NCBI GenBank assembly: GCA_963719525.1
Contig: CAVRCG010000004.1
Coordinates: forward strand, 925,579 to 989,578
Reading direction: 5' to 3'
From: an uncultured Cytophagales bacterium
Lineage (GTDB): Bacteria > Bacteroidota > Bacteroidia > Cytophagales > Bernardetiaceae
DNA length: 64,000 bases
Of this stretch, positions 9,510 through 63,733 are shown in pieces. The notes under the pieces are model-generated. The model searched no databases. It was not told where the DNA came from and saw nothing but the letters and a program-made list of their open reading frames with translations. The position numbers and the translations under genes were made by a program. The stretch's first letter is position 1; every line of letters begins with the position of its first letter.

Positions 9510-11693
9510 CTATTTCACAAACAAAAGTTCACGATATTTAGGTATTTGCCAAAGCTCATCGTTGACAAACTGCTCTAACTTATCGGTTTCATAGCGAATC
9601 TTGTCAAAATAAGGCTTAATTTTATTGCAATAGGCTTCTGCACCTTCTTGTGGTTCTAAAAGGTTTGCTTTCTTGCGCTCGTTTATCATTTCTTTTACCA
9701 GTTTTGTAGCTTTATTAATGTGTTTCGAAATCCTACGAGCTGTATCATTTATCATTTCCATGTCATTATCCAAATCAATTTTTTTCATTTTATGGATAGT
9801 TTCAGAAATTTCGCCTAGATATTTCATAGCCGAAGGAACGACATGATTTATGGTAAGGTCGCCAATCAAACGAGATTCAATTTGAACTTGATGCAGGTAA
9901 TTTTCTAAGTGAATTTCCTGACGTGCTTCAATTTCATCTTCTGTTAAGATTTTATTATCTGTAAATAATTTCTTTCCTTTTTGGGTAAGATTAGCCTTTA
10001 GAGCTTCTGGAGTAGTTTTGAAGTTAGAAAGTCCACGTTTTTGAGCTTCTTCTGCCCACTCCTCGCTATAATTATTTCCCTCAAAACGAACTGCTTTTGA
10101 TTCTTTGATATAACGGCGAAGTACATTGACAATAGCGAGTTCCCTTTTATCGCCATCTAATTCTAATTTTTCTACTTCTTCATAAAACTTAGTAAGTTGG
10201 TCTGCGACAGCCGTATTCAGAACCATCATCGGAAGCGAACAGTTAGCCGAAGAACCAACGGCACGAAACTCAAATTTATTTCCTGTAAAAGCAAAAGGCG
10301 AAGTACGATTTCTATCCGTATTGTCTAACAAAATTGGTGGAATTTTATCAATTCCTAACTTGATGTACATATTATCTCCTTTTCCAACTTCTACTTTTGC
10401 GTTTTCTTCCAATTCATTCAAAACTTTATCTAACTGCGAACCTACAAAAACAGAAATAATTGCTGGTGGAGCTTCATTTGCACCCAAACGATAATCATTC
10501 GAATCTGATGCAATACTTGCTCGCAACAAATCGGCGTGTTCGTGAACAGCTTTAATTGTATTTACAAAAAAGGCTAGAAACTGTAAATTTTCTTTTGGCT
10601 TATTTGATGGAGCTAATAAATTTTTCCCTGTATCGGTACTCAATGCCCAATTGTTGTGTTTTCCACTTCCATTTACTCCTTGAAACGGTTTTTCATGGAA
10701 CAGAACTTTCAAATTATGACGTTCTGCAACTCTACTCATGACATCCATCAAAACCATATTGTGATCGACGGCTACATTTACTTCCTCAAATTGTGGAGCG
10801 CATTCAAATTGTGCAGGTGCAACTTCATTATGACGAGTCGTAATTGGAATACCTAACTTCAATGATTCAATTTCAAAATCTTGCATAAATGCTTTCACTC
10901 GTGAAGGAATCGAACCAAAATAATGATCGTCTAATTGTTGCCCACGAGCAGGCGCATGACTCAAAACAGTACGACCACCAAGCATCAAATCATGACGAGC
11001 ATAAAAGAGTGATTTATCGACTACAAAAAATTCCTGTTCCACGCCCAAAGTAACCGTAACTTTATTTACGTTTCTATCAAAGAGTTGACAAACATTTGTT
11101 GCAGCACGATTAAGTAAATCTATAGAACGAATAAGAGGCGTTTTATGGTCTAATGCTTCACCAGTATAAGAAACAAAAAGTGAAGGAATACAAAGTGTTT
11201 TTCCTCCTCCACTCTCTACAATAAAAGCAGGAGAAGACGGGTCCCAAGCTGTATAACCACGAGCTTCGAAGGTTACACGAAGTCCACCACTCGGAAAAGA
11301 AGACGCATCAGGTTCTTGTTGAACTAAAGTTGAGCCTTTAAATTCTTCTAATGGAGTTCCGTCTGAACTAGGGCGAAAAAATGAATCATGTTTTTCTGCA
11401 CTCGTTCCACGCAACGGCTGAAACCAGTGTGTATAATGCGTAACACCGTTTTCGATTGCCCATGCTTTCATTCCAGAAGCAACTGCATCGGCAAGACGAG
11501 TATCTATTTTTTGCCCTTTTTCGATAGCTGCATTTAGATTTTTGAAAGTGGTAGAAGACAAGTAGCGTTGCATTGCTTTTTTATTAAAAACATTTACACC
11601 AAAATAATCTGAAATACGATTTGTGGGAGGAGTTACTTTTACTTCTGAACGGTTTTTGGCTTCCTTTAAGGCTTCAAAACGAATATGTGACAT
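9510..11693 (-). CDS. glnN: glutamine synthetase type III (GSIII)
   Basis: 727 aa, Bacteroides-type GSIII length and N-terminus (MSHIRFEALKEAKNRSEVKVTPPTNRISDYFGVNVF…). Confidence 0.9.
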   Translation of the reverse strand: MSHIRFEALKEAKNRSEVKVTPPTNRISDYFGVNVFNKKAMQRYLSSTTFKNLNAAIEKGQKIDTRLADAVASGMKAWAIENGVTHYTHWFQPLRGTSAEKHDSFFRPSSDGTPLEEFKGSTLVQQEPDASSFPSGGLRVTFEARGYTAWDPSSPAFIVESGGGKTLCIPSLFVSYTGEALDHKTPLIRSIDLLNRAATNVCQLFDRNVNKVTVTLGVEQEFFVVDKSLFYARHDLMLGGRTVLSHAPARGQQLDDHYFGSIPSRVKAFMQDFEIESLKLGIPITTRHNEVAPAQFECAPQFEEVNVAVDHNMVLMDVMSRVAERHNLKVLFHEKPFQGVNGSGKHNNWALSTDTGKNLLAPSNKPKENLQFLAFFVNTIKAVHEHADLLRASIASDSNDYRLGANEAPPAIISVFVGSQLDKVLNELEENAKVEVGKGDNMYIKLGIDKIPPILLDNTDRNRTSPFAFTGNKFEFRAVGSSANCSLPMMVLNTAVADQLTKFYEEVEKLELDGDKRELAIVNVLRRYIKESKAVRFEGNNYSEEWAEEAQKRGLSNFKTTPEALKANLTQKGKKLFTDNKILTEDEIEARQEIHLENYLHQVQIESRLIGDLTINHVVPSAMKYLGEISETIHKMKKIDLDNDMEMINDTARRISKHINKATKLVKEMINERKKANLLEPQEGAEAYCNKIKPYFDKIRYETDKLEQFVNDELWQIPKYRELLFVK

Positions 11694-12300: not shown

Positions 12301-15300
12301 ATGGTCGGACTTACTTACGCAGCAAAAGCACTCACAGGCGCATTTGTGGGATATATTACAAATGATTTGGCAATTCAGATGCTTTTCAGAAAGCGTTTTG
12401 GTTTGGGTGGCATTTTTCTCAAAACACATCACGAATTTGTAATCAATATTAGCAAACTCGTCGAAAAAGATATTCTAAATCATAAAACGTTGCTGCCAAA
12501 AATAGAAAACGAACAATTTCAGAAGGCACTTCAAAAAACGGTTCAGACGTATATCGAATCAAAACTGGGAGCTTCTGTTTCAGATAATTTTACGCTACAA
12601 GATATTCCCAAATTTAAGGAAACCACAAATGTAGTTAGGGAACAAATAAAGGGAAGTTTGCCACAAACAGTAGAACCTTTTCTACTTCATCTTTTCAAAA
12701 GAAACTACATTAGGCGATGCCATTTCGGACGAGCAATGGCAAAGTGTAAGTAAGAATATTGTGAAAGAATTAATGGCTGGCGTTTCAGAATGGAATAGTT
12801 TGGAAAAATTGGTGCGTGATTTTACAGATGAGATTGGAAACGAATCTATTTCGTCTTTTATTCATCAAGATTTACAAAATAATATCAAAGAGGAGTTACA
12901 TTTTCTGACAGCCGATTTGCATCTTTTATTAGAAGCACAGCACAAAAAACCAATAGAAAATCTAATCAATCAGACTTTTGAGGAATTAGAAATCGAAGAA
13001 CTAGTTACTAATCTGGCTGGACGAATTTCGAAAAAAACGATTAATTGATATTTTGGGAGAAGAAAAAGCAGAGCATTTAGTGAAAGAAGTTTTGAAGCGT
13101 TTGCAGGCGATTTTGGAAACCGAAGAAGGAATAAAGATTTTAGATGTCTTTTCAGATTTTTTGATTAATACATTAGAAAAGGAAGAAAAAACGATTTTCA
13201 AACTTTTAGACCCAACTACAAAAGTAACATTACAAAAATTCTTTGCTCATCAATTTCCTGCTATTTTGGTAAAAGTAATTGGTTGGCTGTATAGCCGTCA
13301 GAGGGAATTAGAAATTTTGATTGACCAAACTTTTACAAATAATGTAGAATCTGGTTTCAAAAATTGGTTGGTAAAAGTTTTTGTGGGAAGTATTAGCCAA
13401 TTGACCGATATTATTGGAAAAGTAACAAGTATTATTGATTCCTACCGTCGTAATCCTGATGAAGTGGCGAAAGAACTTACGCAGCAAGTTGTAGAATATC
13501 TGGAAAGCAAAAGTATAGGAGAAATTGTTGGAGGACTAAAAAACCAGAATACCGTTGTTTCGCTGACCAAAATTTTGCGTAAAAATGTCTATGATGCCCT
13601 TAATCGAATGGACGTAATGCCGTTAGCAAAACTATTTCTGGAGAAAGAAATTGGAGAATTTATTCCTATTGAAAAACTAACTCCGTTCTTACTTATTAAT
13701 CTAAATAAATTTAGAAAAAATTCTGTACAAACGCTTATTTTTAATGCTAAATTTTCTGAAAGACTTACAAAAGAACTCAACAAGCGAGTAGATAAAATAA
13801 TTGAAACACCTATAAATCAACTTATTGCAGCCGAACAGCGTAAAAAATTAGCGATTAATTTTGAAAAATGGGCAGTCGAAAAATCTCAAAATCACACTTC
13901 TGAAATAGCTGATTTTTTATCAAAAAATATTTCTCAAAGAGTAAATGAGCAGTCTTTGAGTCGTCTTATTTCGGCAGACCAAATTGAAGAATTAGCTATC
14001 GGACTTACAGAACGAGCAGATTCTTACGCCATAGAATTTCTAAAAGACATAGAAAACGAGGAAGTCAAAAATTACTTAGCTTCTCTCAAAAAGTTTCCCA
14101 GCATTTCGGAAGATTTATCAAAAACGCTGCACAAATTTTTGGTTCAAAACTTAGATACGCTTGTTAATGGAAGGATTGAAGAAGTCGTTCAACTTAATTT
14201 GAGCCAACAAACGCCTGAAACTATCCGAACGATGGTGGAAAAGTTTATGGGAAAAGAACTCAAACCGATTACGGCTTTGGGTGCGCTTTGGGGTGGAATT
14301 GCTGGAGGAACGCTTGCTGCAATGCCTGAAATTAATCATTTAGCATTAAAATATACTGTTCCTGCGCTTGCGTATGGGGTTACGGGTTTGGGTACAAACT
14401 GGATTGCGCTGCAAATGATTTTCAAACCTTACGAGAAAAAATATTTCCCTCTTACCAAAAAAACCGTTCCTGTTCCACTTACTCCCGGAATTGTCATAAA
14501 AAATAGAGGACGTTTTGCCGAAAATATGGGAAATTTTGTAGGTAACAAACTAATGAGTGAAGAAGGTTTGAGAACTTCTTTTGATGCCAGCAAAGATAAG
14601 ATTTTAGAGGGTGCGAAAAATTGGATTCAGTCTGATAATTATGCCAAAATTTATGAATATACAGAAGATTATAAAGCCTTTATTGCTCAAAAGGGAGCTT
14701 CTTTAAGTTGGAAATTGGTTGAAGGTTTTACTGAAAATGAAAATGATAGTTTAGACACAAATCAAGAAACTAAATTATCGTCTTTACTCAAAAAAGCAAT
14801 TCAGCCGTATCAAAAATTTACATTAGAAGACATCGATACCTCTTCTTTTGAGAGTACAGTTCTGAAATATATTCAAGATGATTCGCTTTCTGATTTGGTT
14901 TCAGAAACAGCTTTTGAGCAAATAGAAAGCTATTTGAAAAGCCACGAAACGTTGGGCGATGCGCTTCCACAATCTGTACGAACGGTTTTGTACGATAAAA
15001 TAAAAAACTGGATTAGCTTAGAAATGGATTCGTTTTTTGAGAAAATAGATAGTGATGAGCAAGTTAATTTCTTGATAAAACAATTAAATTCGGAATTTGC
15101 AGAACAGGCAACTGAACGAACTATTCAGAGTTATTTGAGCAAAAAGCAAACTCGTAATTTGGAAACAAAACTATCCGATTATTTAGTCGAACAATTACAG
15201 GACACCAAAACACAAGGAAAAGTTTTTGAATTTATCGACAAACATATTTCGACAGAAATCTCTGATGATAAAAAAATAGGAGAATTATTTGATGGTTCTT

Positions 15301-16499
15301 TGCTTAGTCTTCTGACAAATAATATCGATTTTATTATTCAAAAAATGATAGAAACAGGTGCAGAATGGCTTACTCAAAATAGTGAAGAAGTCGCTACACA
15401 AGTTTATGAGAAAGCTTATTCGGAACAAAAAGCTGCATTTATCTATAAAAAAGCAATCAAAAAAACAGCAAAAGAACTGGCTACGGAAGGAATACCAAAT
15501 TTTTTGTTAAAAGAAATTGAAAGTGTAAATCGTTTAGTTCATAATGAAGTAGAACGAATTGGAGAAGTTTCGTTAGGCGAAGTGGGTGTAAAACTCAATA
15601 ATTCGTATTTAGAAAAAACGGTTTCGAATCTTTTGGGAAATGAAACGACACAAAAAGCAGTTAGAGATTTGACAAACGAACTTTTAGAAACTCTTTTCCA
15701 GACTAAAGTTTCAACGTTTATTTCGGTTACAGATATTCATTCTTTGGAGGATTTACAAAATTTACTTCAAACAGAACTAAAACTAGCAGGAAAACACCTA
15801 AGAACGCATTATTTTTCACATCGAACGCAGTTACAAGAAAAGCCAAACGAACTTATTATTGGTGTAATTGAATCGATTTTACAAAAAAATAGCTTCGAAA
15901 ATCAAGAAAATAATTTGACTTCGAATAAAGCGTTATGGCAACGAATTGATAAATCTGCACTTAATCAAACCATTGAAAAAGTAAGCAAACAGATTTTGAA
16001 ATCGGCTGCTTTAGATGCACAAGGGCGAAGAGTGGTCGCACTTTTATTTGAGCGAATCAAAAAAATTCCAGCAAATGAGTTTGTAGATTGGACTATTTTG
16101 GAAAAAGACCTTGCGAGAGCTATTCAAAAACAGTTAGACCAGCCCAAAAACAAAGAACTTTTTGAAGAAGCATTATCTCATTTTATCCAAAAAAATCTCC
16201 TTCCACTACTAAAAAACATTCCAAATGAAAGCAAAGATTTTGTAGTCGAACTTTTATTGAATGCAGGTTTGGAAGCTCTACAAGAAGAATTACCTCATAT
16301 TTTGGCTTCTATTCCGATAAAAGATATTGTTATTTCCGAAATTTCACAGATGCCCCCACAAGAAATTGAAGCCTTGTTTAATTCGTTTGCCAAAAAGTAT
16401 TTTGATAGGCTTGTACAATATGGTTTTGGTTTTGGAATTGTCTTTGGGCTTACGCTAGATACACTTTTAGAGTTTGGGTTGGATTATGTGGAGAAGTAA
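12301..16499 (+). CDS. giant DUF445-like membrane protein (~1390 aa), reading frame broken twice (12753/12761 and 13048/13053)
   Basis: three consecutive ORFs in frames 1,2,0 with continuous sense; N-terminus …GYITNDLAIQMLFRKRF… and C-terminus …FAKKYFDRLVQYGFGFGIVFGLTLDTLLEFGLDYV resemble DUF445-family termini. Confidence 0.5.
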
Positions 16500-31231: not shown

Positions 31232-31424
31232 AGTTGTATTACGTATAACAGACTTCCTAGTCTGTTTGAATGTTTAAATACTTTGTTTTTTGCACAGACT
31301 AGGAAGTCCGTGCTACTTTTGATTAAAGTATAATACTACTAAAAAAAACTCAAAAACAGAAATTATGCGTGCATACTATTTTATTAATTTTAAAGATTTA
31401 TATATTTTTCAGTACTATTAAGTA

Positions 31425-31462
31425 AAAAGGCTCTACATTATTATTAATGTAGAGCCTTTTTT
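31425..31462. terminator. bidirectional rho-independent terminator (aaaaaggctctacatt-attatta-atgtagagcctttttt)
   Basis: perfect 13-bp stem flanked by A-run and T-run, 15 bp downstream of the MVP gene end. Confidence 0.6.
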
Positions 31463-31477
31463 ACGTATAACAAATCG

Positions 31478-33985
31478 TTATTCAATTTCCGTATTTTCGG
31501 ATATTTTCAAACTATTCAAAACAGAACTAAGCTGCGTTCCTTTTAAAAGATTTCCGAAGACATCTGCAATAGATTTTCCTCCCAAAATAGCTAATGGAGC
31601 CATAGAATCTGCCATTTTCTGAGCGAGTTCTTTATCAGAAAACGATTGTAATGCTGCAATCAAATCTGGAGAAATAGCTTTTGCTTTTGCTACAACAGCT
31701 TCTACTTCGGTTTGCTCTTCCAAAATAAACTGCTCTAATTCTCTTTGTGCTTTTTCCAACTCAAGGTTATTAATAGATTTTTGACGTGAGAGTTCATCGT
31801 CATTGATTTGATTAAGCGATTTTTGCTCGTCTAATCGTGCTTGCAGATGACGTTCCTTACTAATTATCTCACTCTCAATTTTTGATAAAGTTACTTCTAA
31901 AAGTTTTTGAGTTTCTTGTCTTTGTAGGTCGTAAATGGTTTGTTTGGTTTGGGACTGCGTGGCTGCAATCTGACGAGTAATGGCTTCACTTTCTTGTGTG
32001 AATTCTAATTTTCGTTTTTCAGAATTAATACGCAACGTTTGCATAACGGTATCTTGCTGTGAAGAAATAAGTAAGTTTTCAATGTTTGCATCTCCCAAAC
32101 TAATATCCAAAATTTCTACGTCATAAATACGCATTCCGTTTTCTTCAAAGAGTCGTCCTGTTCGTTTTCCTGTTTTCTTGTCGTTTTCTCCCAAAATAGC
32201 ATCTCTCAAAATCGTAATTCCGTTGGCGTAAAATTCCATAATCGGATATTTTCTGACTGTATTACGAATATAAGAGCGCATGTGGTCTGTTAGAAACTTA
32301 ACATAATTTTCCACATTAAACCATTTATCCGAACTTCCTTCAAAATTGACACGGTAGGAAAGACTGAGTTTTACCTGCGTATAATCTGCTGATTCTGCAA
32401 AAATTTCATCAGAAACTTTATTATACAACACTCTCAAATAAACGGTTTTGATAGAATTTTCTGTCGTTTTTGGTGTTCCTGTCGAAAGCTCAATTCCCTC
32501 TAATTCTTCATCATATTCCAACAAATAGGATTGAGAGCATCTTCAATAACTTTGCGCTTTCCTGTCTTGCTGACCACCAAAACAGCATAACCTGTCCAAG
32601 GCGCAATCGTAACTGCTCCCTCAAATTTTGTATCTAGCGTAATCATACGAGGAGGTGTAAACGAATTATCACGATTAAACTCATCACTAATTACGCTACT
32701 AGAAATTTTTTGCTTTTTATTGAGTTGCTCTTGTGGTTTTGGTGGAGCTTGATTCTGCTGCTGCAATTCAAAATCAGTAACAAAATTATCGTTTTTGGCA
32801 ATATCTTGTAAAGCCATATTGTACTTCATCGCTTCATTATTATTCGGAAACCAAAGCGAAGTCTGACTTTTTGTAAGCACACGACGCACCAAAACAAACT
32901 CTCTAGGATCTGGCAAAAACATCGCTGCCCCTTTCATAAGTGCAACCGTTCCTGTCTTTCTATTGAGATAATAACGTCCTTCTCCTGCTGGAATAGCAAT
33001 TGCATAATGGCGTTCTTTGTTTCCATAACGCACAACGGCATGTTCTGGACGAGGGTAATAAATCATTTGATCTTTTCCTGTAATAAAAAGTTCGTCGCCT
33101 TCTTTGTATTCATTTTTTCCTTCTTTATAAGGTGCAATTACTTTTATATACAAACCACTCATTTCATTGAGTTCGATGGCTTTAAATTTTCGTTGTCCAT
33201 TTTTTTCAATAAACTCTTCTGAAGGTTCTGGGAAAACTACTTTTGGTTCATTGAATATATCTTTTATTTCCGTCTTCATTAAGTAAAATACAATATTCCA
33301 AACGCTCTAAAGTTACGGCTTCACGCACATATTCATCGTTTTCGTAAGAATACATAGGCTCTGTACGAACTACTTCAATTCCTGTTGGTGGAATATAAAA
33401 TGAAACGGCATCACCACGAATAATCAAAAGTTGTCCCATAGTAAGACTTTCGGCAACTTCTTTGAGTTCTTTTATTTCATTTTTGACTTCTTTTTTTTCT
33501 CCTTCTTTTGTTTTGATAACTGATTTGCCCCAATTTTCTCTTGCCTGCACTTCATCATAGACACGAACCAACAAATATTGATTCGAACTTAGATTATGAC
33601 CGTGAACAACTCGTGCCATTTGTCCTGCCCAAAGTGCAAAAGAAATTGCGCCGAAATATTTACTTTTCGTCCTACATTCAATTCTACCAAATTATTGCTC
33701 GTTCCTGTTTTTGGTGGATTTGTATCTTTCGAAAGGATTTTTCAGAACTACATACCAACCTTCTGGAGCAATCACAAAAGCTCTCATCGCTTCTTCTAAA
33801 TTACATTTTTCGAAACGCTTAGTAGCATCATCGAACATAACAGGACGGTCAGTATTTGCAAGGCTTGTTTTGTAAGGACCTACATAAACATTAATATTTC
33901 CCTTTGTTTGGTCGGAAATAAAAGCGTATTCGTTGGGAGCTAAAACTAAATCTCGTTCTCGGCTTTCTCGGCTTGTGTCAGACAT
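31478..33985 (-). CDS. major vault protein (MVP) homolog, fragmented into four ORFs in different frames
   Basis: N-terminal ORF (…LAPNEYAFISDQTKGNINVYVGPYKTSLANTDRPVMF…RAFVIAPEGWYVVLKNP) aligns with eukaryotic MVP repeat 1 (…[36 protein letters not shown]…RMVTVPPRHYCTVANP); following ORFs continue MVP-repeat-like segments, then an SPFH/band-7-like shoulder and a long Q/E-rich coiled-coil cap helix in 31478..32524. Confidence 0.65.
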
Positions 33986-36644: not shown

Positions 36645-39326
36645 ATGAGCAAAAAATCAACTTCCCAAAAAAGTAAAACCAGTCACACCGACACAAAAAA
36701 AACAAAGCAAACTCCTTTGATGAAACAATACAATCAAATCAAAGGAAAACATCCTGATGCCATTTTGCTTTTTCGTGTTGGCGATTTTTACGAAACGTTT
36801 GGAGAAGATGCTGTTCGTGCTGCCAAAATCTTAGATATTACACTTACCAAACGTGCAAACGGTGCAGCTTCCGAAATTGCATTAGCAGGTTTTCCTCATC
36901 ATTCGTTAGATAATTATTTACCAAAACTGGTTCGTGCAGGACTTCGTGTTGCAATCTGCGACCAATTAGAAGACCCAAAACTAGCAAAAGGAATTGTAAA
37001 AAGAGGAGTTACAGAACTCGTTACACCGGGGCTGGTTTTGGGAGATAATGTGTTGGAGAACAAGAAAAATAATTATTTAGCATCTGTTTATTTTTATAAA
37101 AACAAAAAATACGAAGCTGTTGGAGCTGCTTTTTTAGATTTATCGACAGGAGAATTTTTGGTAGCAGAAGGAGAATATTCGTATATCGAACAATTATTAG
37201 AACGTTTTGCACCTTCTGAAATTATTTTTAGTAAGTCCAACAGAAAAGAATTTGAGGCACAGGTAGTCAGACAGGGAAGTGATTTTTCACAGTTTGCTAT
37301 CGAAGAGTGGATTTATACGATAAATTTTGCTTACGAAAAACTGACAAAACATTTCGGAACGGCTTCTCTAAAAGGTTTCGGAATTGAGAATCTGCACGCT
37401 GCCACGATTGCAGCAGGAGCAGTTTTGTATTATTTGGAAACGACAGAACACCACGAAAAAAATCATATTCTTTCTCTAAGCAGAGTAGAACAAGATAAAT
37501 ATGTTTGGTTAGATTCTTTCACTACTCGTAATCTGGAACTGCTCGTTCCGATGCACGGAAATGGTTGTTCGTTGATTGAAGTATTGGACAAAACCGTTAC
37601 GCCAATGGGCGCAAGACTGATGAGAAAATGGGTTGCTTTTCCATTAAAAGATGCACGACCAATTCAAAATAGACTTCGAAATGTGGCTATTTTGGTAGAA
37701 AAAGATGCCTTACAAGGCGAGCTACTTTCGTATTTGAAGGAAGTAGGAGATTTAGAACGTTTAATTTCAAGAGTTGCTGTGGGTAGGATTAGTCCGAAAG
37801 AGCTAGTAAAATTGAGAGATTCTTTGGAAGCCATTCCACCGATAAAAGATATTTTATTGAAAAGTAAAACGAACGAATTAGAAGCCATTGGAGAAAAAAT
37901 AGTTCTGAATACAGATATTTTAAAGAAGCTACAAAACGAGCTGGAGGACAATCCACCAATTGCAGTTCAGCAAGGGACAACTATAAAGCGAGGCGTAAAT
38001 CAAGAATTAGATGAGCTTAGAGATATTTCTAGTTCGGCAAAAGATTTTCTGGAAAAAGTACGTCAGAGAGAAATTATTGCAACAGGAATTACATCGCTCA
38101 AAATTAGTTTCAATAAAGTTTTTGGTTATTATATTGAGGTTAGTAATGCTCACAAAACCAAAGTTCCGACAGAATGGATTCGCAAACAAACGCTCGTCAA
38201 TGCAGAACGTTACATTACGCCAGAGCTAAAAGAATGGGAAGAAAAAATTGTTACAGCAGAGGAAAAAATCGCTAGTATTGAGTACACACTTTATCACAAT
38301 TTGGTTTCTGAAGTCGCTAAGTATGTAAAGGTAATTCAGCAAAACGCAAAGTTTTTGTCGATGCTGGATGCCCTTTGTGGACTTGCAGAAGTGGCGATGC
38401 AAAATAATTACTCCTTACCAGAAATCACAGATGACAACATTTTAGAGATTAGAGAAGGAAAGCATCCTGTTATCGAAAAATTATTACCGATTGGAGAGCA
38501 GTATGTTCCAAATGATGTAATTATGAATCCTGAAAGCGAACAAATTTTTATCATAACGGGTCCGAATATGGCTGGTAAATCTGCTCTTTTACGACAAACG
38601 GCTTTGATAGTTTTGATGGCTCAAATTGGAAGTTTTGTTCCTGCTAAGAGTGCAAAAATAGGAGTAGTGGATAAAGTTTTTACTAGAGTTGGAGCGTCGG
38701 ATAATATTGCAAAAGGAGAATCTACTTTTATGGTAGAAATGTCTGAAACGGCTAGTATTCTGAATAATTTGAGTGATAGAAGTCTTGTTTTGATGGACGA
38801 AATAGGACGTGGAACAAGTACTTACGACGGAATTTCGATTGCATGGGCAATTGTGGAATACTTGCATTCTTTACCTAATGCAAAACCAAAAACACTTTTT
38901 GCTACGCATTATCACGAACTCAACGAACTCAAAAACGATTTTGATAGAATTAGAAATTACAATGTTTCGGTAAAAGAAGTGGGAGGAAAAATAATTTTTC
39001 TTAGAAAACTAAAAGAAGGAGGAAGCGAACATAGTTTTGGAATAAATGTAGCCTCACTTGCAGGAATGCCTAAAAAAGTAGTTTTGAGAGCATCGGAAAT
39101 GATGCACCATTTTGAAACCAATAAATTTGCAGAAAAAGACAAAGAAACGCTGCAATCTGCGCCAAAAAATACGTTTTATGAAAACACTTTGTTTGCTGGA
39201 AATGGAACAAATGACCCTGTTTTAGAAAAACTAAAAGAAGAATTATTACAACTTGATGTCAATCGTCTTTCGCCTGTGGAGGCACTTTTGAAATTGAATG
39301 AATTTAAGATTAGAGTGGGGAAATAA
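36645..39326 (+). CDS. mutS: DNA mismatch repair protein MutS
   Basis: 893 aa; mismatch-binding N-terminus (TPLMKQYNQIKGKHPDAILLFRVGDFYETFGEDA), Walker A GPNMAGKS, MutS domain V DEIGRGTSTYDG. Confidence 0.95.
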   Translation: MSKKSTSQKSKTSHTDTKKTKQTPLMKQYNQIKGKHPDAILLFRVGDFYETFGEDAVRAAKILDITLTKRANGAASEIALAGFPHHSLDNYLPKLVRAGLRVAICDQLEDPKLAKGIVKRGVTELVTPGLVLGDNVLENKKNNYLASVYFYKNKKYEAVGAAFLDLSTGEFLVAEGEYSYIEQLLERFAPSEIIFSKSNRKEFEAQVVRQGSDFSQFAIEEWIYTINFAYEKLTKHFGTASLKGFGIENLHAATIAAGAVLYYLETTEHHEKNHILSLSRVEQDKYVWLDSFTTRNLELLVPMHGNGCSLIEVLDKTVTPMGARLMRKWVAFPLKDARPIQNRLRNVAILVEKDALQGELLSYLKEVGDLERLISRVAVGRISPKELVKLRDSLEAIPPIKDILLKSKTNELEAIGEKIVLNTDILKKLQNELEDNPPIAVQQGTTIKRGVNQELDELRDISSSAKDFLEKVRQREIIATGITSLKISFNKVFGYYIEVSNAHKTKVPTEWIRKQTLVNAERYITPELKEWEEKIVTAEEKIASIEYTLYHNLVSEVAKYVKVIQQNAKFLSMLDALCGLAEVAMQNNYSLPEITDDNILEIREGKHPVIEKLLPIGEQYVPNDVIMNPESEQIFIITGPNMAGKSALLRQTALIVLMAQIGSFVPAKSAKIGVVDKVFTRVGASDNIAKGESTFMVEMSETASILNNLSDRSLVLMDEIGRGTSTYDGISIAWAIVEYLHSLPNAKPKTLFATHYHELNELKNDFDRIRNYNVSVKEVGGKIIFLRKLKEGGSEHSFGINVASLAGMPKKVVLRASEMMHHFETNKFAEKDKETLQSAPKNTFYENTLFAGNGTNDPVLEKLKEELLQLDVNRLSPVEALLKLNEFKIRVGK

Positions 39327-43249: not shown

Positions 43250-43669
43250 ATGAGTACTACCAATACAGAAAATTTTTTATTCGAAAATGAGTATGTTCTT
43301 TTCGATGTTACCAAATTTCCATTTATCTACATAGAACATACAGCGCATCAGCCTACACCAGAAGAATTTAATGACTACATAAATTGTATGAGTAGAGCCT
43401 TGTTGCGAAATGAACCCTATGTTTTGCTTGTCGATATGAGCAAAGTAGAATATCTGAATACTGAATACAGAACTATTAGTGAGAATTGGAATAAAACTAA
43501 TTCTGCTCATTTGGGTAAACATTGTAAAGGTGCTGCTAATTTGGTGCGTGATGAAGAACAAAAAGCAATATTGAATTATGTACTCAAATTAGCGTATGAC
43601 ATAACTTATCCAAATTTTGTTACTGTAAGTAAAGAAAAAGCAGAGCAATGGTTGGAAGGAAGAGTTTAG
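43250..43669 (+). CDS. small protein, tandem paralog 1 of 4 (unknown function)
   Basis: 139 aa; shared motifs FLFENEY-LFD-TKFP, CKGAAN, EQWLEGRV. Confidence 0.6.
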   Translation: MSTTNTENFLFENEYVLFDVTKFPFIYIEHTAHQPTPEEFNDYINCMSRALLRNEPYVLLVDMSKVEYLNTEYRTISENWNKTNSAHLGKHCKGAANLVRDEEQKAILNYVLKLAYDITYPNFVTVSKEKAEQWLEGRV

Positions 43670-43705
43670 ATTTTAAAACAGTGCTATAATTATGAATTTA
43701 ATTTT

Positions 43706-44122
43706 ATGGATAATTTTAATGTAAAAGAATTTCGTTTTGAGAATGAGTATTTTCTATTTGATGCAACTAAGTTTCCTTATTTGTACATAAGATTTAAAAT
43801 TGAAAAGCCGAACAGGAAACAGTTTGATGAGTATTTATATTGTCTGAATAACGTCATTCTACAACCTCAAAATTACGTTCTTTTTTCTGAACTCAAAGAA
43901 ACAGAATATATACAAGCCGAATTTAGAAAGGAGTTAGACAGTTGGCTTATCAAAAATATTGGACACATTAATCAATATTGTAAAGGTGCTGCAAATGTAG
44001 TAGCCGATGAAAATCAAAGACTACTTTTGACTCAAATGGTAAAAGCTCATCAACCAGTTTACCCTGTTTTTATTACCGATGACGAACAAAAAGCGAAAGA
44101 GTGGCTAGAAGGAAGAGTTTAG
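43706..44122 (+). CDS. small protein, tandem paralog 2 of 4
   Basis: 138 aa; FRFENEYFLFDATKFPYLYI…CKGAANVV…KEWLEGRV. Confidence 0.6.
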   Translation: MDNFNVKEFRFENEYFLFDATKFPYLYIRFKIEKPNRKQFDEYLYCLNNVILQPQNYVLFSELKETEYIQAEFRKELDSWLIKNIGHINQYCKGAANVVADENQRLLLTQMVKAHQPVYPVFITDDEQKAKEWLEGRV

Positions 44123-44158
44123 AAATTAATAAAACATTTTTTTAACTTTATTATCACT

Positions 44159-44575
44159 ATGAAAAATACTGAACCATCAAAATTTCTTTTTGAAAACGAT
44201 TATTGTCTTTTTGACTCTACTAATTTTCCTCATTTGTACATGAAGTTTAAAATTGAAAATCCTGATAAAAAGGAATTTTATGAATATTTAGACTGTATGA
44301 ATAAAATTTTGCTTCACGATAAAAAATATATTGTATTGGTGGAGCTAAACGGTTCGGAATATCTAAAAGCTGAATTTAGGAAAAGGTTAGCCGAATGGAA
44401 CGATGAGCATCATGAAATATTGAAAAAATATTGTAAAGGAGTAGCTTATATTAGCCATTCAGAAGAACAAAGGACGATGCTAAAAATTATTTTAGATGGT
44501 TATGTCTTGCCTCATCCTGTTGTGGTAACAGACACGCAAGAAAAAGCTGAAAACTGGCTGGCAAACAGAATTTAG
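44159..44575 (+). CDS. small protein, tandem paralog 3 of 4
   Basis: 138 aa; FLFENDYCLFDSTNFPHLYM…CKGVAYISHSEEQR…ENWLANRI. Confidence 0.6.
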   Translation: MKNTEPSKFLFENDYCLFDSTNFPHLYMKFKIENPDKKEFYEYLDCMNKILLHDKKYIVLVELNGSEYLKAEFRKRLAEWNDEHHEILKKYCKGVAYISHSEEQRTMLKIILDGYVLPHPVVVTDTQEKAENWLANRI

Positions 44576-44622
44576 ATTCAGAAAAATACTATTGATCATA
44601 TAAATCATTATCTTGTTTTGTT

Positions 44623-45039
44623 ATGAATAATTTTAATCCGAATGAATTTTACTTTGAAAATGAATATTTCTCTTTTGATGCAACAGCATTTCCATATATT
44701 TACATAAAATTCAAACCTCAAGTAGCTGAAAGAGAACAGTTTGATGGTTACATTCATTGTATGAATAAAATTCTTTTACAGGAAAAGTTTTATGTAATTT
44801 TGATAGAACTAGCAGATTCGGAATATTTAAAAGCAGAATTTAGAAAAGAACTAGCAGAATGGAACGTTAAATATATAGCACACATGGGCAAGTTTTGCAA
44901 AGGAGTAGCACATATTAGCCATTCGGAAGAGCAGCGTGTTATGATGAAAACAATTTTGAATAGTTATGTTTCGCCTTATCCTGTTGTGGTAACGGACACG
45001 CAAGAAAAAGCTGAAAATTGGCTGGCAGGACGAGTATAA
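44623..45039 (+). CDS. small protein, tandem paralog 4 of 4
   Basis: 138 aa; FYFENEYFSFDATAFPYIYI…CKGVAHISHSEEQR…ENWLAGRV. Confidence 0.6.
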   Translation: MNNFNPNEFYFENEYFSFDATAFPYIYIKFKPQVAEREQFDGYIHCMNKILLQEKFYVILIELADSEYLKAEFRKELAEWNVKYIAHMGKFCKGVAHISHSEEQRVMMKTILNSYVSPYPVVVTDTQEKAENWLAGRV

Positions 45040-61315: not shown

Positions 61316-63733
61316 ATGCTCCCTATTACTGAAAAAGAATTAGAATTAGCCATTGAAAATTGTGCGAAAGAACCCATACATCGCTTAGGTTTTGTTCAAC
61401 CTTATGGTTTTTTGGTTTTGTTTTCAGAGAAAATGAATATTTTGGGTGTTAGTCAGAATCTGACCGAACAGACAGAATACAGTTTTGAAGACCTTATTAA
61501 TACTTCTCTCATAAGTTTGTTGGGCGACCGACAAACAAAATTTCTTAAAAGCAAAATAGAAAAATTAGAACTTGAAGACGAAACAGCTTATTACAAAGCA
61601 ATTAGTCCTTTACGTTTTTTTTTAGAAATAGATAATGAAAAAGCTCCTTTTGATGGGATTATTCATAGAAGTAATCACGGTTTTGTGTTAGAATTAGAGC
61701 CTGTTGATACAGAAATAAACGAAACTGGAAAGGATAATTTTTATCAAATCAATAAGAAATCAATTATTCGTTTTCAACATTCGAATCAGCTAGAAGAACT
61801 CTATAAAATAATTGTAGAAGAAATACAAAATATTACAGGATTTGATAGGGTAATGCTCTACAAATTTAATAAAAATTTTGATGGACAAATTGTAGCAGAG
61901 GTCAAACAAGAAGATATGAATTCTTTTTATGATTTATGGTTTCCTGCTACTGATATTCCCAAACAAGCTAGAGAAATGTATCTCAAGAATTGGTTGCGAT
62001 TAATTGTCAATATAAATCATACGCCTTCGCCTATTTTGTTGGAAGAATCTATCAAGAATGAACCTTTAGATTTGACTTTTTCTACATTGCGTAGCGTTTC
62101 GCCTGTCCATATCGAATACCTCAAAAATATGGGAGTTGGCGCTTCTATGTCTATTTCTATTATTATCGATGGTAAATTGTGGGGACTTATTTCGTGTCAT
62201 CATAATTTGGCTAAAAAGGTTGATTATTCTACTCGTATGACGGCTGAATTTTTTGCTCAACTTGTTTCTTTACAAATTGATAGATTGCAAAAAAATAATT
62301 TCCAATACGATAAATTAGAAAAACAGACACTTTCGGAAGGAATTGTAGAATCACTCAACGAAGAAAAAAATGTGTATGCAGGAATGATTAAAAAAGGAAA
62401 TTCTTTTTTGAAATTACTGAATGCTGACGGTTTTGCTGTTCTGACCGATATTGACAAAAATAGAAAAATATCGACAGTAGGAATTACACCGAATAAAGAA
62501 GAGATTTGGAAAATAAAAGACTGGTTGGAGGTAAATCATGAAAAGGGGATATTTTGTTCACATTGCGTTTCTGAAGATGTTGCAAAAGTAAAAATAGATT
62601 CTGCTATGTGTTCTGGTGTGTTGAGTATTTTGATTTCGAAGGAAGATAATAGTCGTATGATTTGGTTTCGAAAAGAATTGCAACAAAGTATAAGTTGGGG
62701 AGGAGAACCAGAAAAAGCCGTTTTTGAGCAAGGAAATGAATTTATATTAAAGCCTCGTAATTCGTTTGCCAAATGGAATCAAAACGTAGAATGTCAGTCG
62801 CAGCAATGGGAAGAGTCAGAAATAGAAATGGCAAAAAGCATTCAAGCAAAAATATTTTATATCGTTACTCAAAATATGAATGAGTATAGAGAAGAAATAA
62901 GGCGAAAAGAATTGGAACAGCAAGTTCAAATCCGAACAGAAGAACTCACATCAATTAACGAAAAGCTAAGTTCTGAAATAACGACGAGAGAAAATATATC
63001 ACAGCAGTTGAAGGAAGGTATGCAGCTTTTGGAACTTACCAACAAAGAATTAGAACATTTTGCTTACGTTGCTTCTCACGATTTGCAAGAACCTTTGCGT
63101 GCTATTGCTAGTTTTAGTCAGCTTTTGGAAAGGCGTTATAAAGGACAGTTGGATGAAAAAGCTGATATGTATATTCGTTTTATTATTGAAGGTTCAAACA
63201 GAATGAAAAGTCTGATTATGGATCTGTTGCAATATTCAAGATTACACCGAAACGAAACGCCTTATAAAGAAATTATTTTACAAAATGTATATGATGATGC
63301 TGTAAAAAACCTAACTGTTCGAATTGAGGAAACAGAAGCTACAATAGATTTGCAGAATACTATGTCTTCTTTCAATATATTTGGTAGTGAAATAAAACTT
63401 ACTCAACTCTTTCAAAACTTAATAGGAAATTCTTTAAAATATCGTTCGGCAGACAGAAAGCCTGTAGTGAAAATTAAGTGTATAGAAAAAGAAGAGCATT
63501 ATGATTTTACGATTTCAGATAATGGAATCGGAATTGACCCACGATTTGCAGACAGGATTTTTGTTCTGTTTCAACGTTTGCACACAAAGGAAGAATACGA
63601 AGGAACAGGAATTGGTCTAGCTCTTTGTCAGAAAATAGTAGAACAACACAATGGAAAAATCTGGCTAAACCTTCAAGAAAGTAAATATGGAAAGGGAACA
63701 ACTATTCATTTTACATTAAATAAACGCAATTAG
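61316..63733 (+). CDS. bphP: bacteriophytochrome histidine kinase (PAS-GAF-PHY-HisKA-HATPase)
   Basis: 805 aa; biliverdin-attachment context ENCAKEPIHRLGFVQPYGFLVL (CxxEPIHxxGxIQPxG), GAF/PHY region, H-box FAYVASHDLQEPLR, ATPase N/G boxes (IGNSLKY…DNGIGID…GTGIGLALC). Confidence 0.9.
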   Translation: MLPITEKELELAIENCAKEPIHRLGFVQPYGFLVLFSEKMNILGVSQNLTEQTEYSFEDLINTSLISLLGDRQTKFLKSKIEKLELEDETAYYKAISPLRFFLEIDNEKAPFDGIIHRSNHGFVLELEPVDTEINETGKDNFYQINKKSIIRFQHSNQLEELYKIIVEEIQNITGFDRVMLYKFNKNFDGQIVAEVKQEDMNSFYDLWFPATDIPKQAREMYLKNWLRLIVNINHTPSPILLEESIKNEPLDLTFSTLRSVSPVHIEYLKNMGVGASMSISIIIDGKLWGLISCHHNLAKKVDYSTRMTAEFFAQLVSLQIDRLQKNNFQYDKLEKQTLSEGIVESLNEEKNVYAGMIKKGNSFLKLLNADGFAVLTDIDKNRKISTVGITPNKEEIWKIKDWLEVNHEKGIFCSHCVSEDVAKVKIDSAMCSGVLSILISKEDNSRMIWFRKELQQSISWGGEPEKAVFEQGNEFILKPRNSFAKWNQNVECQSQQWEESEIEMAKSIQAKIFYIVTQNMNEYREEIRRKELEQQVQIRTEELTSINEKLSSEITTRENISQQLKEGMQLLELTNKELEHFAYVASHDLQEPLRAIASFSQLLERRYKGQLDEKADMYIRFIIEGSNRMKSLIMDLLQYSRLHRNETPYKEIILQNVYDDAVKNLTVRIEETEATIDLQNTMSSFNIFGSEIKLTQLFQNLIGNSLKYRSADRKPVVKIKCIEKEEHYDFTISDNGIGIDPRFADRIFVLFQRLHTKEEYEGTGIGLALCQKIVEQHNGKIWLNLQESKYGKGTTIHFTLNKRN

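What the first reader, a model, noticed from the sequence alone, without database searches (positions are those of the whole stretch)
31478..33985. Bacterial major vault protein homolog, split into four ORFs by three frame changes
The N-terminal ORF aligns residue by residue with eukaryotic MVP repeat 1 (…P.Y.YIHVLDQ…V.VGPKTY…R..F…P.G.Y.V..NP). Downstream ORFs continue with further MVP-repeat-like segments, an SPFH/band-7-like shoulder and a long Q/E-rich coiled-coil cap helix. Vault proteins are essentially eukaryotic; homologs are reported only sporadically in a few gliding Bacteroidetes and other bacteria, and their function there is unknown. The gene is broken into four frames (33692-33985, 33248-33619, 32500-33279, 31478-32524) with short overlaps. 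This may be sequencing error, like ftsH, or real pseudogenisation.
Basis: partly seen in the sequence, partly recalled or inferred. Interest (0 to 1): 0.7.

Follow-up and report, generated by a model that had tools for sequence, protein, structure and literature searches.

The report
Bacterial vault-protein gene broken by sequencing errors
This is an ordinary copy of the known bacterial relative of the eukaryotic major vault protein, in a Bernardetia-like marine bacterium; its apparent breakage into four pieces is most likely a sequencing artefact tied to the DNA motif GGNCC, not a dead gene.

Summary
The four minus-strand ORFs exist as described. Joined, they give an ~834-aa protein 90% identical over its full length to intact 822-827-aa proteins of Bernardetia species. 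It carries the MVP shoulder domain (Pfam E=2e-32), and family profiles hit only vault structures in the PDB (E=2e-41).

Three indels sit exactly on GGNCC pentamers that encode invariant Gly-Pro pairs in all five intact orthologs. The fourth is a T-run insertion.

The same two lesion types hit other genes. ftsH is frameshifted at its only orthologous GGNCC, in the Walker A motif. A DUF445 gene carries two +1 homopolymer insertions.

Chance overlap of frameshifts with GGNCC sites is about 5e-8. The window's MVP lineage shows no relaxed selection (42 synonymous : 9 nonsynonymous changes; dN/dS ~0.08).

Best explanation: motif-linked (probably DNA-modification-linked) plus homopolymer consensus errors in an intact gene.

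Bacterial MVP homologs are already described and are not sporadic: 1,634 clusters at 50% identity. Their function is untested. Low interest.

The parts
31478..33985 (-). Whole MVP-homolog gene. The conceptual CDS is about 834 codons once four indels are corrected. It is an ortholog of the Bernardetia 'Shoulder domain protein / major vault protein'.
   Evidence: 86-87% nucleotide and about 90% amino-acid identity over the full length to five intact orthologs (L001, L002, L004, L006, L007).
33692..33985 (-). Fragment 1: the N-terminus with the first repeat. It ends at a TAA created by the +1 shift.
   Evidence: Weak collinear match of profile 13-51 to rat MVP 10-47.
33732..33734 (-). Lesion 1: +1 T. 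The window reads CCTTTCG where all five orthologs read CC(T/C)TC.
   Evidence: This is a homopolymer-type insertion, not at a GGNCC.
33876..33880 (-). The one GGNCC (Gly36-Pro37 codons, GTA GGT CCT) that is still intact in the window's gene.
33646..33654 (-). Lesion 2: a garbled GGNCC with a net -1. The window reads TCGGCG-CAA where orthologs read GCAGGACCTA (invariant Gly112-Pro113).
   Evidence: GP is present in 116/116 and 106/108 family members.
33248..33619 (-). Fragment 2. Its real reading starts upstream, at about 33649. It is in the same frame as fragment 1.
33245..33250 (-). Lesion 3: a garbled GGNCC with a net +1. The window reads CAATGAACC where orthologs read CAA-GG(G/A/T)CC (Gly239-Pro240). 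This creates the TGA stop.
32500..33279 (-). Fragment 3: the central repeats and a low-complexity linker.
   Evidence: Profile segment 236-359 aligns to MVP 294-409.
32534..32541 (-). Lesion 4: a garbled GGNCC with a net +2. The window reads GAAGATGCTCTC where orthologs read GAAG--G(T/A)CCTC (invariant Gly474-Pro475).
   Evidence: Repairing it lifts the Pfam Vault_3 hit to 32.5 bits, above its 28.8 cut-off.
31478..32524 (-). Fragment 4: the last repeat, the shoulder (SPFH-like) domain, the cap helix of about 137 residues, and the C-terminal tail.
31424..31456 (-). Intrinsic-terminator-like hairpin directly after the stop codon: a 12-bp perfect stem, a 4-nt loop, then a U-run.
   Evidence: Sequence. 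Fold energy -23.7 kcal/mol, z=-9.4. The pattern scanner did not list it.
21576..21579 (+). Same lesion class outside the gene: the ftsH Walker A codons read GGCCTTCC, where orthologs read GG(A/C)CCTCC(A/C)GG. This frameshifts ftsH (20793-22855).
   Evidence: After a one-base repair the motif reads GPSGTGKT, but 120/120 homologs have GxPGTGKT.
12692..13031 (+). Two +1 homopolymer insertions (T3->T4 at 12692, A6->A7 at 13031). They split a 1395-aa DUF445 gene (12301-16499) into three ORFs.

Best explanation
The locus is the Bernardetia-lineage ortholog of the bacterial major-vault-protein (MVP) family. It is a stand-alone gene of about 830 codons with a strong terminator hairpin directly after its stop codon.

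The organism most likely has an intact, functional gene. The four frame changes in the window are consensus sequence errors of two kinds. (i) Local scrambling of the pentamer GGNCC, at three of the gene's four GGNCC sites. (ii) A one-base over-call in a short T run.

Inference: GGNCC is probably a modified (methylated) restriction-modification motif in this lineage. That would explain both the genus-wide scarcity of the motif and its mis-reading by a modification-sensitive long-read platform. The platform itself could not be established.

Inference from homology, not shown: the protein has beta-sandwich MVP repeats, an SPFH-like shoulder and a long cap helix. It is expected to self-assemble side by side into a large hollow vault-like or SPFH-like cage. 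It appears to do so without the eukaryotic partners (vPARP, TEP1, vault RNA).
For: Identity of the gene:
- The joined reading is 90% identical over 100% of its length to intact 822-827-aa proteins.
- Pfam: MVP_shoulder E=8.5e-32, and Vault_3 at 32.5 bits against a cut-off of 28.8.
- Family profiles hit only MVP chains in the PDB (E=9e-24; E=2e-41 with collinear segments).
- The Foldseek top-12 hits are all vault structures (E down to 5e-18), plus the MVP R1-R7 crystal fragments.

Artefact:
- The orthologs have exactly four GGNCC sites in this gene, all encoding near-invariant Gly-Pro pairs. The window keeps one and has a scrambled patch with a net indel at each of the other three.
- The only GGNCC in the orthologs' ftsH (Walker A) is the site of the window's only ftsH frameshift. 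The repaired motif still violates an invariant Pro.
- The chance that at least 4 of 5 indels fall within 2 nt of the five GGNCC sites is about 5e-8.
- GGNCC is the most window-depleted of 49 palindromic motifs compared with relatives (4 against 17.9 expected). It is 4 against 38±6 by shuffling. The control motif CCNGG is intact at orthologous sites.
- The other three frameshifts found (MVP lesion 1 and two in DUF445) are all +1 in T or A runs.
- In total there are 7 frameshifts in about 9.7 kb of alignable coding sequence, spread over three unrelated genes.
- No relaxed selection: the window branch has 42 synonymous and 9 nonsynonymous changes (N/S 0.21, against 0.17-0.31 in the intact genes), and dN/dS is about 0.08.
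- In-frame indels (+12, +9, +3, +3) sit only in variable loops.
- mutS is intact.
- Literature: uncorrected nanopore consensus errors are dominated by methylation-motif and homopolymer errors (PMC6591954). Such errors inflate pseudogene counts, partly through species-specific DNA modifications (PMC8011154).
Against: - No reads or independent assembly of this lineage could be found, so the errors are inferred, not seen.
- The sequencing platform is unknown, and the homopolymer-length spectra match those of the relatives.
- Published methylation-motif errors are mostly substitutions. Here each site is a multi-base scramble with an indel, and the scramble differs from site to site.
- One GGNCC in the same heptamer context (AGGTCCT, 33876-33880) is read correctly.
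- No GGNCC methyltransferase was identified.
- Four of the seven frameshifts lie in this one gene, although that matches its unusually high number of GGNCC sites.
- The cage-forming mechanism is untested in any bacterium.
Confidence: 0.78

Rival explanations
1. Real, very recent pseudogene: the strain has truly lost its MVP homolog through four independent indels.
For: There are four disabling lesions in one 2.5-kb gene. The gene is non-essential and is patchily distributed among bacteria. An IS110 transposase and a defence island lie nearby, which shows some genome flux.
Against: There is no rise in nonsynonymous change on the window branch. Three lesions coincide with GGNCC at P about 5e-8. 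The same lesion types disable ftsH in its Walker A motif and a DUF445 gene. That would require a genome-wide wave of pseudogenisation in an otherwise gene-dense window.
Confidence: 0.12
2. Real GGNCC-targeted mutagenesis: for example, self-restriction by a GGNCC endonuclease followed by error-prone end repair has scarred the remaining sites in the chromosome.
For: The lesions are strictly site-specific and heterogeneous (substitutions plus small indels), as end-joining scars would be. GGNCC is under-represented across the genus, which suggests a cognate restriction-modification system.
Against: It would have destroyed the Walker A motif of FtsH, which is otherwise 95% identical to its orthologs. 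It does not explain the three homopolymer insertions. No repair machinery or restriction enzyme was identified.
Confidence: 0.04
3. Programmed recoding: the gene is expressed through ribosomal frameshifting at the four junctions.
For: The shifts sum to +3, so the last fragment returns to the first frame.
Against: None of the five orthologs, and none of the 116 full-length family members aligned, needs any frameshift. There are no slippery heptamers at the junctions. Invariant Gly-Pro residues would be lost. Four shifts of mixed sign and size have no precedent.
Confidence: 0.01
4. Not a vault protein but simply an SPFH/band-7 (flotillin or HflK-like) membrane-scaffold protein with a long N-terminal extension.
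For: The shoulder is SPFH-like. Band_7 gives sub-threshold hits in orthologs (21.2 bits against a 23.6 cut-off). Foldseek finds HflK/C, flotillin, prohibitin and stomatin at E about 1e-5.
Against: MVP structures score 10 or more orders of magnitude better and align over about 700-860 columns, including the N-terminal repeat region. Sequence profiles hit only MVP. The Vault_3 repeat model passes its threshold.
Confidence: 0.03

Closest known systems
Bacterial MVP homologs of Cytophagales/Bernardetiaceae (e.g. Bernardetia litoralis DSM 6794 'Shoulder domain protein', P0003; Microscilla marina A1ZGE7-type protein, P0063)
   Same: Orthologous: 89-90% (Bernardetia) and 62% (Microscilla) identity over the full length. 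Same length class, about 822-847 aa. Same Pfam hits (Vault_3 and MVP_shoulder). Stand-alone gene.
   Different: The window copy appears interrupted by four indels. It also has lineage-specific in-frame loop insertions (+12, +9, +3, +3 nt). The gene neighbourhood is not conserved, even within the genus.
Eukaryotic major vault protein (rat, human or rabbit MVP; PDB 4V60, 4HL8, 7PKZ, 9BW5)
   Same: Collinear architecture: N-terminal beta repeats, a shoulder, a long cap helix and a C-terminal tail. Profile E=2e-41 over MVP 458-813, with weaker matches to 294-409 and 10-47. Foldseek E down to 5e-18.
   Different: Only 16-20% identity in the fold alignments. Most N-terminal repeats are not recognised by the Pfam repeat models. 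No vault RNA match in the window, and no conserved partner genes. Particle formation has never been shown for a bacterial homolog (10.1101/872010).
SPFH-family cages (HflK/C, flotillin, prohibitin, stomatin)
   Same: The shoulder domain has the SPFH fold and is followed by a long helix that, in those proteins, bundles into a dome. Foldseek E about 1e-5.
   Different: SPFH proteins lack the approximately 500-residue repeat barrel. In published structures they are membrane-anchored. Band_7 does not reach its Pfam threshold here.
Methylation-motif and homopolymer consensus errors of long-read assemblies (Dcm CCWGG errors, Wick et al. 2019, PMC6591954)
   Same: The same two classes appear: errors concentrated on one short palindromic motif, plus homopolymer length errors. 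They produce spurious frameshifted genes.
   Different: The motif here is GGNCC, not CCWGG. The lesions are multi-base scrambles with indels rather than single substitutions. The platform and the modification are unknown.

Membership tests
Major vault protein (MVP) family | Shoulder domain (Pfam PF11978 MVP_shoulder) | tested here: met
   E=2.1e-32 (112 bits, cut-off 25) on fragment 4. E=8.5e-32 on the repaired protein.
Major vault protein (MVP) family | MVP repeat immediately before the shoulder (Pfam Vault_3) | tested here: met
   32.5 bits against a cut-off of 28.8 once lesion 4 is repaired. Orthologs score 29.2-35.4 bits.
Major vault protein (MVP) family | A stack of further N-terminal MVP repeats (R1-R8 in eukaryotes) | tested here: inconclusive
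   No Pfam repeat model hits the first ~470 residues. The N-terminal-only profile hits only MVP, but weakly (E=0.007, profile 217-350 to MVP 275-409). The diverse profile adds a non-significant collinear match to repeat 1. Foldseek hits the MVP R1-R7 crystal fragments at E=4e-4 to 1e-3, but the model's N-terminal pLDDT is mostly below 60.
Major vault protein (MVP) family | Long cap-helix coiled coil after the shoulder, and overall collinearity and size | tested here: met
   A single helix spans residues 624-760 with pLDDT about 73-90. The HMM alignment runs through MVP 458-813. Orthologs are 822-847 aa, against 861-893 aa for mammalian MVP.
Major vault protein (MVP) family | Self-assembly into a closed multi-subunit vault shell | not testable with these tools
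   Needs expression and EM. Preprint 10.1101/872010 states that nothing is known about bacterial MVP homologs.
Vault ribonucleoprotein particle (MVP + vPARP + TEP1 + vault RNA) | Partner proteins or vault RNA encoded with the MVP gene | tested here: inconclusive
   No Rfam family at gathering score anywhere in the 64-kb window. No PARP- or TROVE-type neighbours and no conserved neighbourhood in six lineages. The rest of the genome was not available.
SPFH / band-7 family | Pfam Band_7 (PF01145) above threshold | tested here: not met
   Absent from the repaired window protein and from P0001. Orthologs reach 21.2 and 14.4 bits against a cut-off of 23.6. Resemblance is at fold level only.
Genuine pseudogene | Relaxed purifying selection on the lineage carrying the lesions | tested here: not met
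   The window branch has 42 synonymous and 9 nonsynonymous changes, N/S 0.21, against 0.17-0.31 for the intact orthologs. Pairwise dN/dS is 0.078-0.086. This does not exclude a very recent loss.
Genuine pseudogene | Lesions confined to the gene and unrelated to any sequence motif | tested here: not met
   Three of the four lesions are at GGNCC. ftsH and a DUF445 gene carry the same lesion types. Chance P about 5e-8.
Motif-linked plus homopolymer sequencing/consensus error | Indels concentrated at one short motif and in homopolymers, across unrelated genes including an essential one | tested here: met
   All 7 frameshifts fit: 4 at GGNCC (4 of the 5 orthologous sites) and 3 are +1 in T or A runs. 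The genes hit are MVP, ftsH (Walker A) and DUF445.
Motif-linked plus homopolymer sequencing/consensus error | Disagreement with raw reads or with an independent accurate assembly; modification present at the motif | not testable with these tools
   The window's genome is not in any collection searched.

The most novel reading that the evidence does not exclude
The GGNCC scars are real. A site-specific process, such as self-restriction at unmethylated GGNCC followed by error-prone repair, has mutated most remaining GGNCC sites in this genome. It has knocked out the MVP homolog and hit the Walker A motif of ftsH. This would be a natural example of restriction-driven genome scarring and a natural MVP-null Bernardetia strain.
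Probability: 0.04. Interest if true: 0.7.

Novelty: already known. Interest (0 to 1): 0.2.

Why it matters
As biology it adds little. Bacterial MVP homologs are already annotated (JGI 'major vault protein', NCBI 'Shoulder domain protein') and discussed in preprints. This copy is a 90%-identical ortholog whose breakage is most likely artefactual.

The practical value is as a caution. The window's assembly contains motif-specific (GGNCC) and homopolymer errors that create false pseudogenes, including in ftsH. Any 'split gene' finding from this genome should be distrusted, and the assembly should be polished.

Two side points have some value.
- GGNCC is probably a modified restriction-modification motif in this lineage, which can be read off from the error pattern alone.
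- The bacterial MVP family is large (1,634 clusters at 50% identity) and very strongly conserved (about 60% identity across the 116 full-length homologs aligned). Its function is still experimentally untouched. It remains a good target for a direct test of whether vault-like cages exist in bacteria.

Tried and rejected
- Pfam and NCBIfam on the separate fragments: only fragment 4 hits Pfam. NCBIfam gives nothing.
- phmmer of ORF1 against the PDB: no hit even at E<=10.
- Exact-sequence look-ups of the neighbouring enoyl-CoA hydratase and of fragment 4, to find the source record or a sister assembly: not on record.
- The genome-contig scan returned five relatives but not the window's own genome.
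- Two metagenome scans found nothing. One used a window-specific 26-mer. The other used the ftsH site written with an intact GGNCC.
- Synteny with Bernardetia genomes is limited to the gene itself, so neighbours could not be compared there.
- Gene-neighbourhood comparison across six lineages found no conserved partner.
- Rfam found no RNA family in the window.
- The promoter/terminator scanner found no terminator, although a strong hairpin is present.
- Homopolymer-length spectra do not separate the window from its relatives, so they say nothing about the platform.
- CCNGG/CCWGG was examined as a possible second problem motif. Orthologous sites are intact with only synonymous differences, so it was rejected as an error motif.
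- Other suspicious ORF pairs (2897/3129, 24697/24976, 28458/28690, 58126/58719) could not be shown to be split genes.
- Two AlphaFold2 runs (28 and 116 sequences) gave confident structure only for the shoulder and cap helix. The N-terminal repeats stayed at low confidence.
Full report
**Observation**

A three-frame translation shows that ORF1 (33692-33985) and ORF2 (33248-33619) are in the same frame. The stretch between them is read in another frame and encodes KDTNPPKTGTSNNLVELNVGRKVNIS. So the gene has four frame changes, not three.

**What the gene is**

Fragment 4 carries the MVP shoulder domain (PF11978, E=2.1e-32) and hits rat and human MVP in the PDB (E about 1e-7). A conceptual joined protein is 90% identical over 100% of its length to intact 822-827-aa proteins. 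These come from Bernardetia species and related MAGs, including B. litoralis DSM 6794 ('Shoulder domain protein'). JGI names many of the homologs 'major vault protein'.

After repair of the last junction, the Vault_3 repeat model passes its curated threshold (32.5 against 28.8 bits).

Family profiles hit only MVP chains in the PDB:
- E=9e-24 with 28 close homologs.
- E=2e-41 with 108 sequences, mostly representatives of 50%-identity clusters.
- The segments are collinear: profile 465-787 to MVP 458-813, 236-359 to 294-409, and a non-significant 13-51 to 10-47.
- The N-terminal profile alone is weak (E=0.007) but again hits only MVP.

Two AlphaFold2 models of the closest intact ortholog are confident only for the shoulder and a 137-residue helix. 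Even so, Foldseek ranks twelve vault structures first (E down to 5e-18). It then finds SPFH cages at about 1e-5 and the MVP R1-R7 crystal fragments at about 4e-4.

Membership in the MVP family is therefore well supported for the C-terminal half. For the N-terminal repeats it is probable but not proven.

**The frame changes**

I aligned the window gene with five intact orthologous genes, at 86-87% nucleotide identity. The window-specific frame-shifting indels are:
1. +1 T at 33732-33734 (CCTTCG becomes CCTTTCG).
2. A net -1 at about 33646-33654.
3. A net +1 at 33245-33250.
4. A net +2 at 32534-32541.

Lesions 2, 3 and 4 are short scrambled patches. Each lies exactly where all five orthologs have GGNCC encoding a Gly-Pro pair. 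Those Gly-Pro pairs are invariant or nearly so across 116 close and 108 diverse family members. The orthologs have exactly four GGNCC sites in this gene, and the window retains only one (33876-33880).

**The same lesions elsewhere in the window**

ftsH (20793-22855) is split. Its repaired product is 95% identical to intact Bernardetia FtsH. Its single frameshift lies at the only GGNCC of the orthologous ftsH genes, in the Walker A Gly-Pro. Even after a one-base repair the motif reads GPSGTGKT. All 120 retrieved homologs have GxPGTGKT, so this patch is scrambled too.

A 1395-aa DUF445 gene, intact in a related contig, is split in the window into three ORFs by two +1 insertions in T and A runs.

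That makes seven frameshifts in about 9.7 kb of alignable coding DNA. Four are at GGNCC, hitting four of the five orthologous sites. Three are homopolymer +1 insertions.

**Statistics on the motif**

- The probability that at least 4 of 5 indels fall within 2 nt of those sites by chance is about 5e-8.
- GGNCC occurs 4 times in the window against 38±6 in shuffles.
- It is the most window-depleted of 49 palindromic motifs relative to 133 kb of related loci (4 against 17.9). That expectation is inflated because the sampled loci are centred on MVP genes.
- The relatives are themselves GGNCC-poor outside this gene.
- The control motif CCNGG is intact at orthologous sites.

**Pseudogene or artefact**

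Lineage-specific codon changes on the window branch are 42 synonymous and 9 nonsynonymous (N/S 0.21). That is the same as in the five intact genes (0.17-0.31). Pairwise dN/dS is about 0.08. In-frame indels occur only in variable loops. mutS is intact.

A real pseudogene would need four independent hits without any trace of relaxed constraint. It would also need unexplained targeting of GGNCC, and parallel inactivation of ftsH in its catalytic P-loop.

The pattern instead matches what is documented for uncorrected long-read consensus. Errors there are dominated by one methylation motif plus homopolymer-length errors (Wick et al. 2019, PMC6591954). Species-specific modifications leave hundreds to thousands of false pseudogenes (Homopolish paper, PMC8011154). 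A related long-read MAG in my comparison set also carries split genes.

I therefore judge the frame changes to be artefacts, with confidence about 0.8.

Caveats:
- No reads or second assembly of this lineage were found.
- The platform is unknown.
- The lesions are multi-base scrambles rather than the single substitutions usually reported.
- One GGNCC in a similar context is read correctly.

**Mechanism and context**

The gene stands alone. A strong hairpin terminator follows its stop codon (-23.7 kcal/mol, z=-9.4). The neighbourhood is not conserved, even within the genus or across six lineages. No Rfam RNA is present in the window.

By homology, the protein should assemble laterally through its repeat barrel and bundle its cap helices, as MVP and SPFH proteins do, to form a large hollow shell. 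This is inference only. No bacterial homolog has been studied experimentally (10.1101/872010; 10.1101/2023.11.10.566534).

**Comparison with what is known**

The family is already described in Cytophagales, Myxococcales and Oscillatoriales and in phages. It is much larger than 'sporadic': 1,634 clusters at 50% identity, 753 of them with E<=1e-30.

**Verdict**

This is a real and already known gene family member. Its 'split' state is most likely not a real feature. Interest is low (0.2). The residual novel reading is real GGNCC-targeted scarring, at about 4% probability.

Noticed in passing
window 20793-22855 (+), lesion at 21576-21579: ftsH is frameshifted inside its Walker A motif, at a GGNCC collapsed to GGCC. 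After a one-base repair the motif reads GPSGTGKT, while 120/120 homologs have GxPGTGKT.
   Followed up: yes
window 12301-16499 (+), lesions at 12692 and 13031: A 1395-aa DUF445 gene, intact in L009, is split into three ORFs by two +1 insertions in a T run and an A run.
   Followed up: yes
window-wide; retained sites at 11240, 33876, 38559, 45976: GGNCC is about tenfold under-represented (4 against 38 expected by shuffling). It is also scarce in related Bernardetia loci outside the MVP gene. This suggests a GGNCC restriction-modification system in the lineage.
   Followed up: partly
window 21797, 22064, 14484 and window-wide: CCWGG is low in the window (2 against about 10.6 expected from relatives). 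At three orthologous sites, CCTGG or CCAGG in relatives reads CCGGG or CCCGG in the window. All these differences are synonymous. They could be natural divergence or a second motif-linked miscall.
   Followed up: partly
window 26199-28295 (-): An AAA_15/AAA_21 ATPase (473 aa) plus a DUF4276 protein (222 aa) match the PADLOC candidate defence system HEC-01 (HEC-01A E=8e-100, HEC-01B E=2e-76).
   Followed up: partly
window 23578-24582 (+): IS110-family transposase (DEDD_Tnp_IS110 plus Transposase_20), about 1.6 kb from the HEC-01 pair.
   Followed up: no
window 43250-45039 (+): Four tandem paralogous ORFs of about 138 aa each, with no Pfam family (one weak DUF7793 hit).
   Followed up: no
window 24697-25698 (-): Two ORFs are separated only by an in-frame stop at 24976-24978, in a Y/D-rich, repeat-like protein with no Pfam hit. 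This could be another sequence error or a true gene end.
   Followed up: no
L009 8146-9007 and 16772-18520: The related long-read MAG contig_18598 has its own split genes. The lipoate-protein ligase gene is in two pieces through an extra C, while it is intact on a second contig of the same sample. A PDDEXK_2 gene is in five pieces.
   Followed up: partly
window 61316-63733 (+), 9510-11693 (-), 36645-39326 (+): A bacteriophytochrome histidine kinase, a type III glutamine synthetase and an intact MutS are encoded in the window. They are ordinary housekeeping and signalling genes.
   Followed up: no
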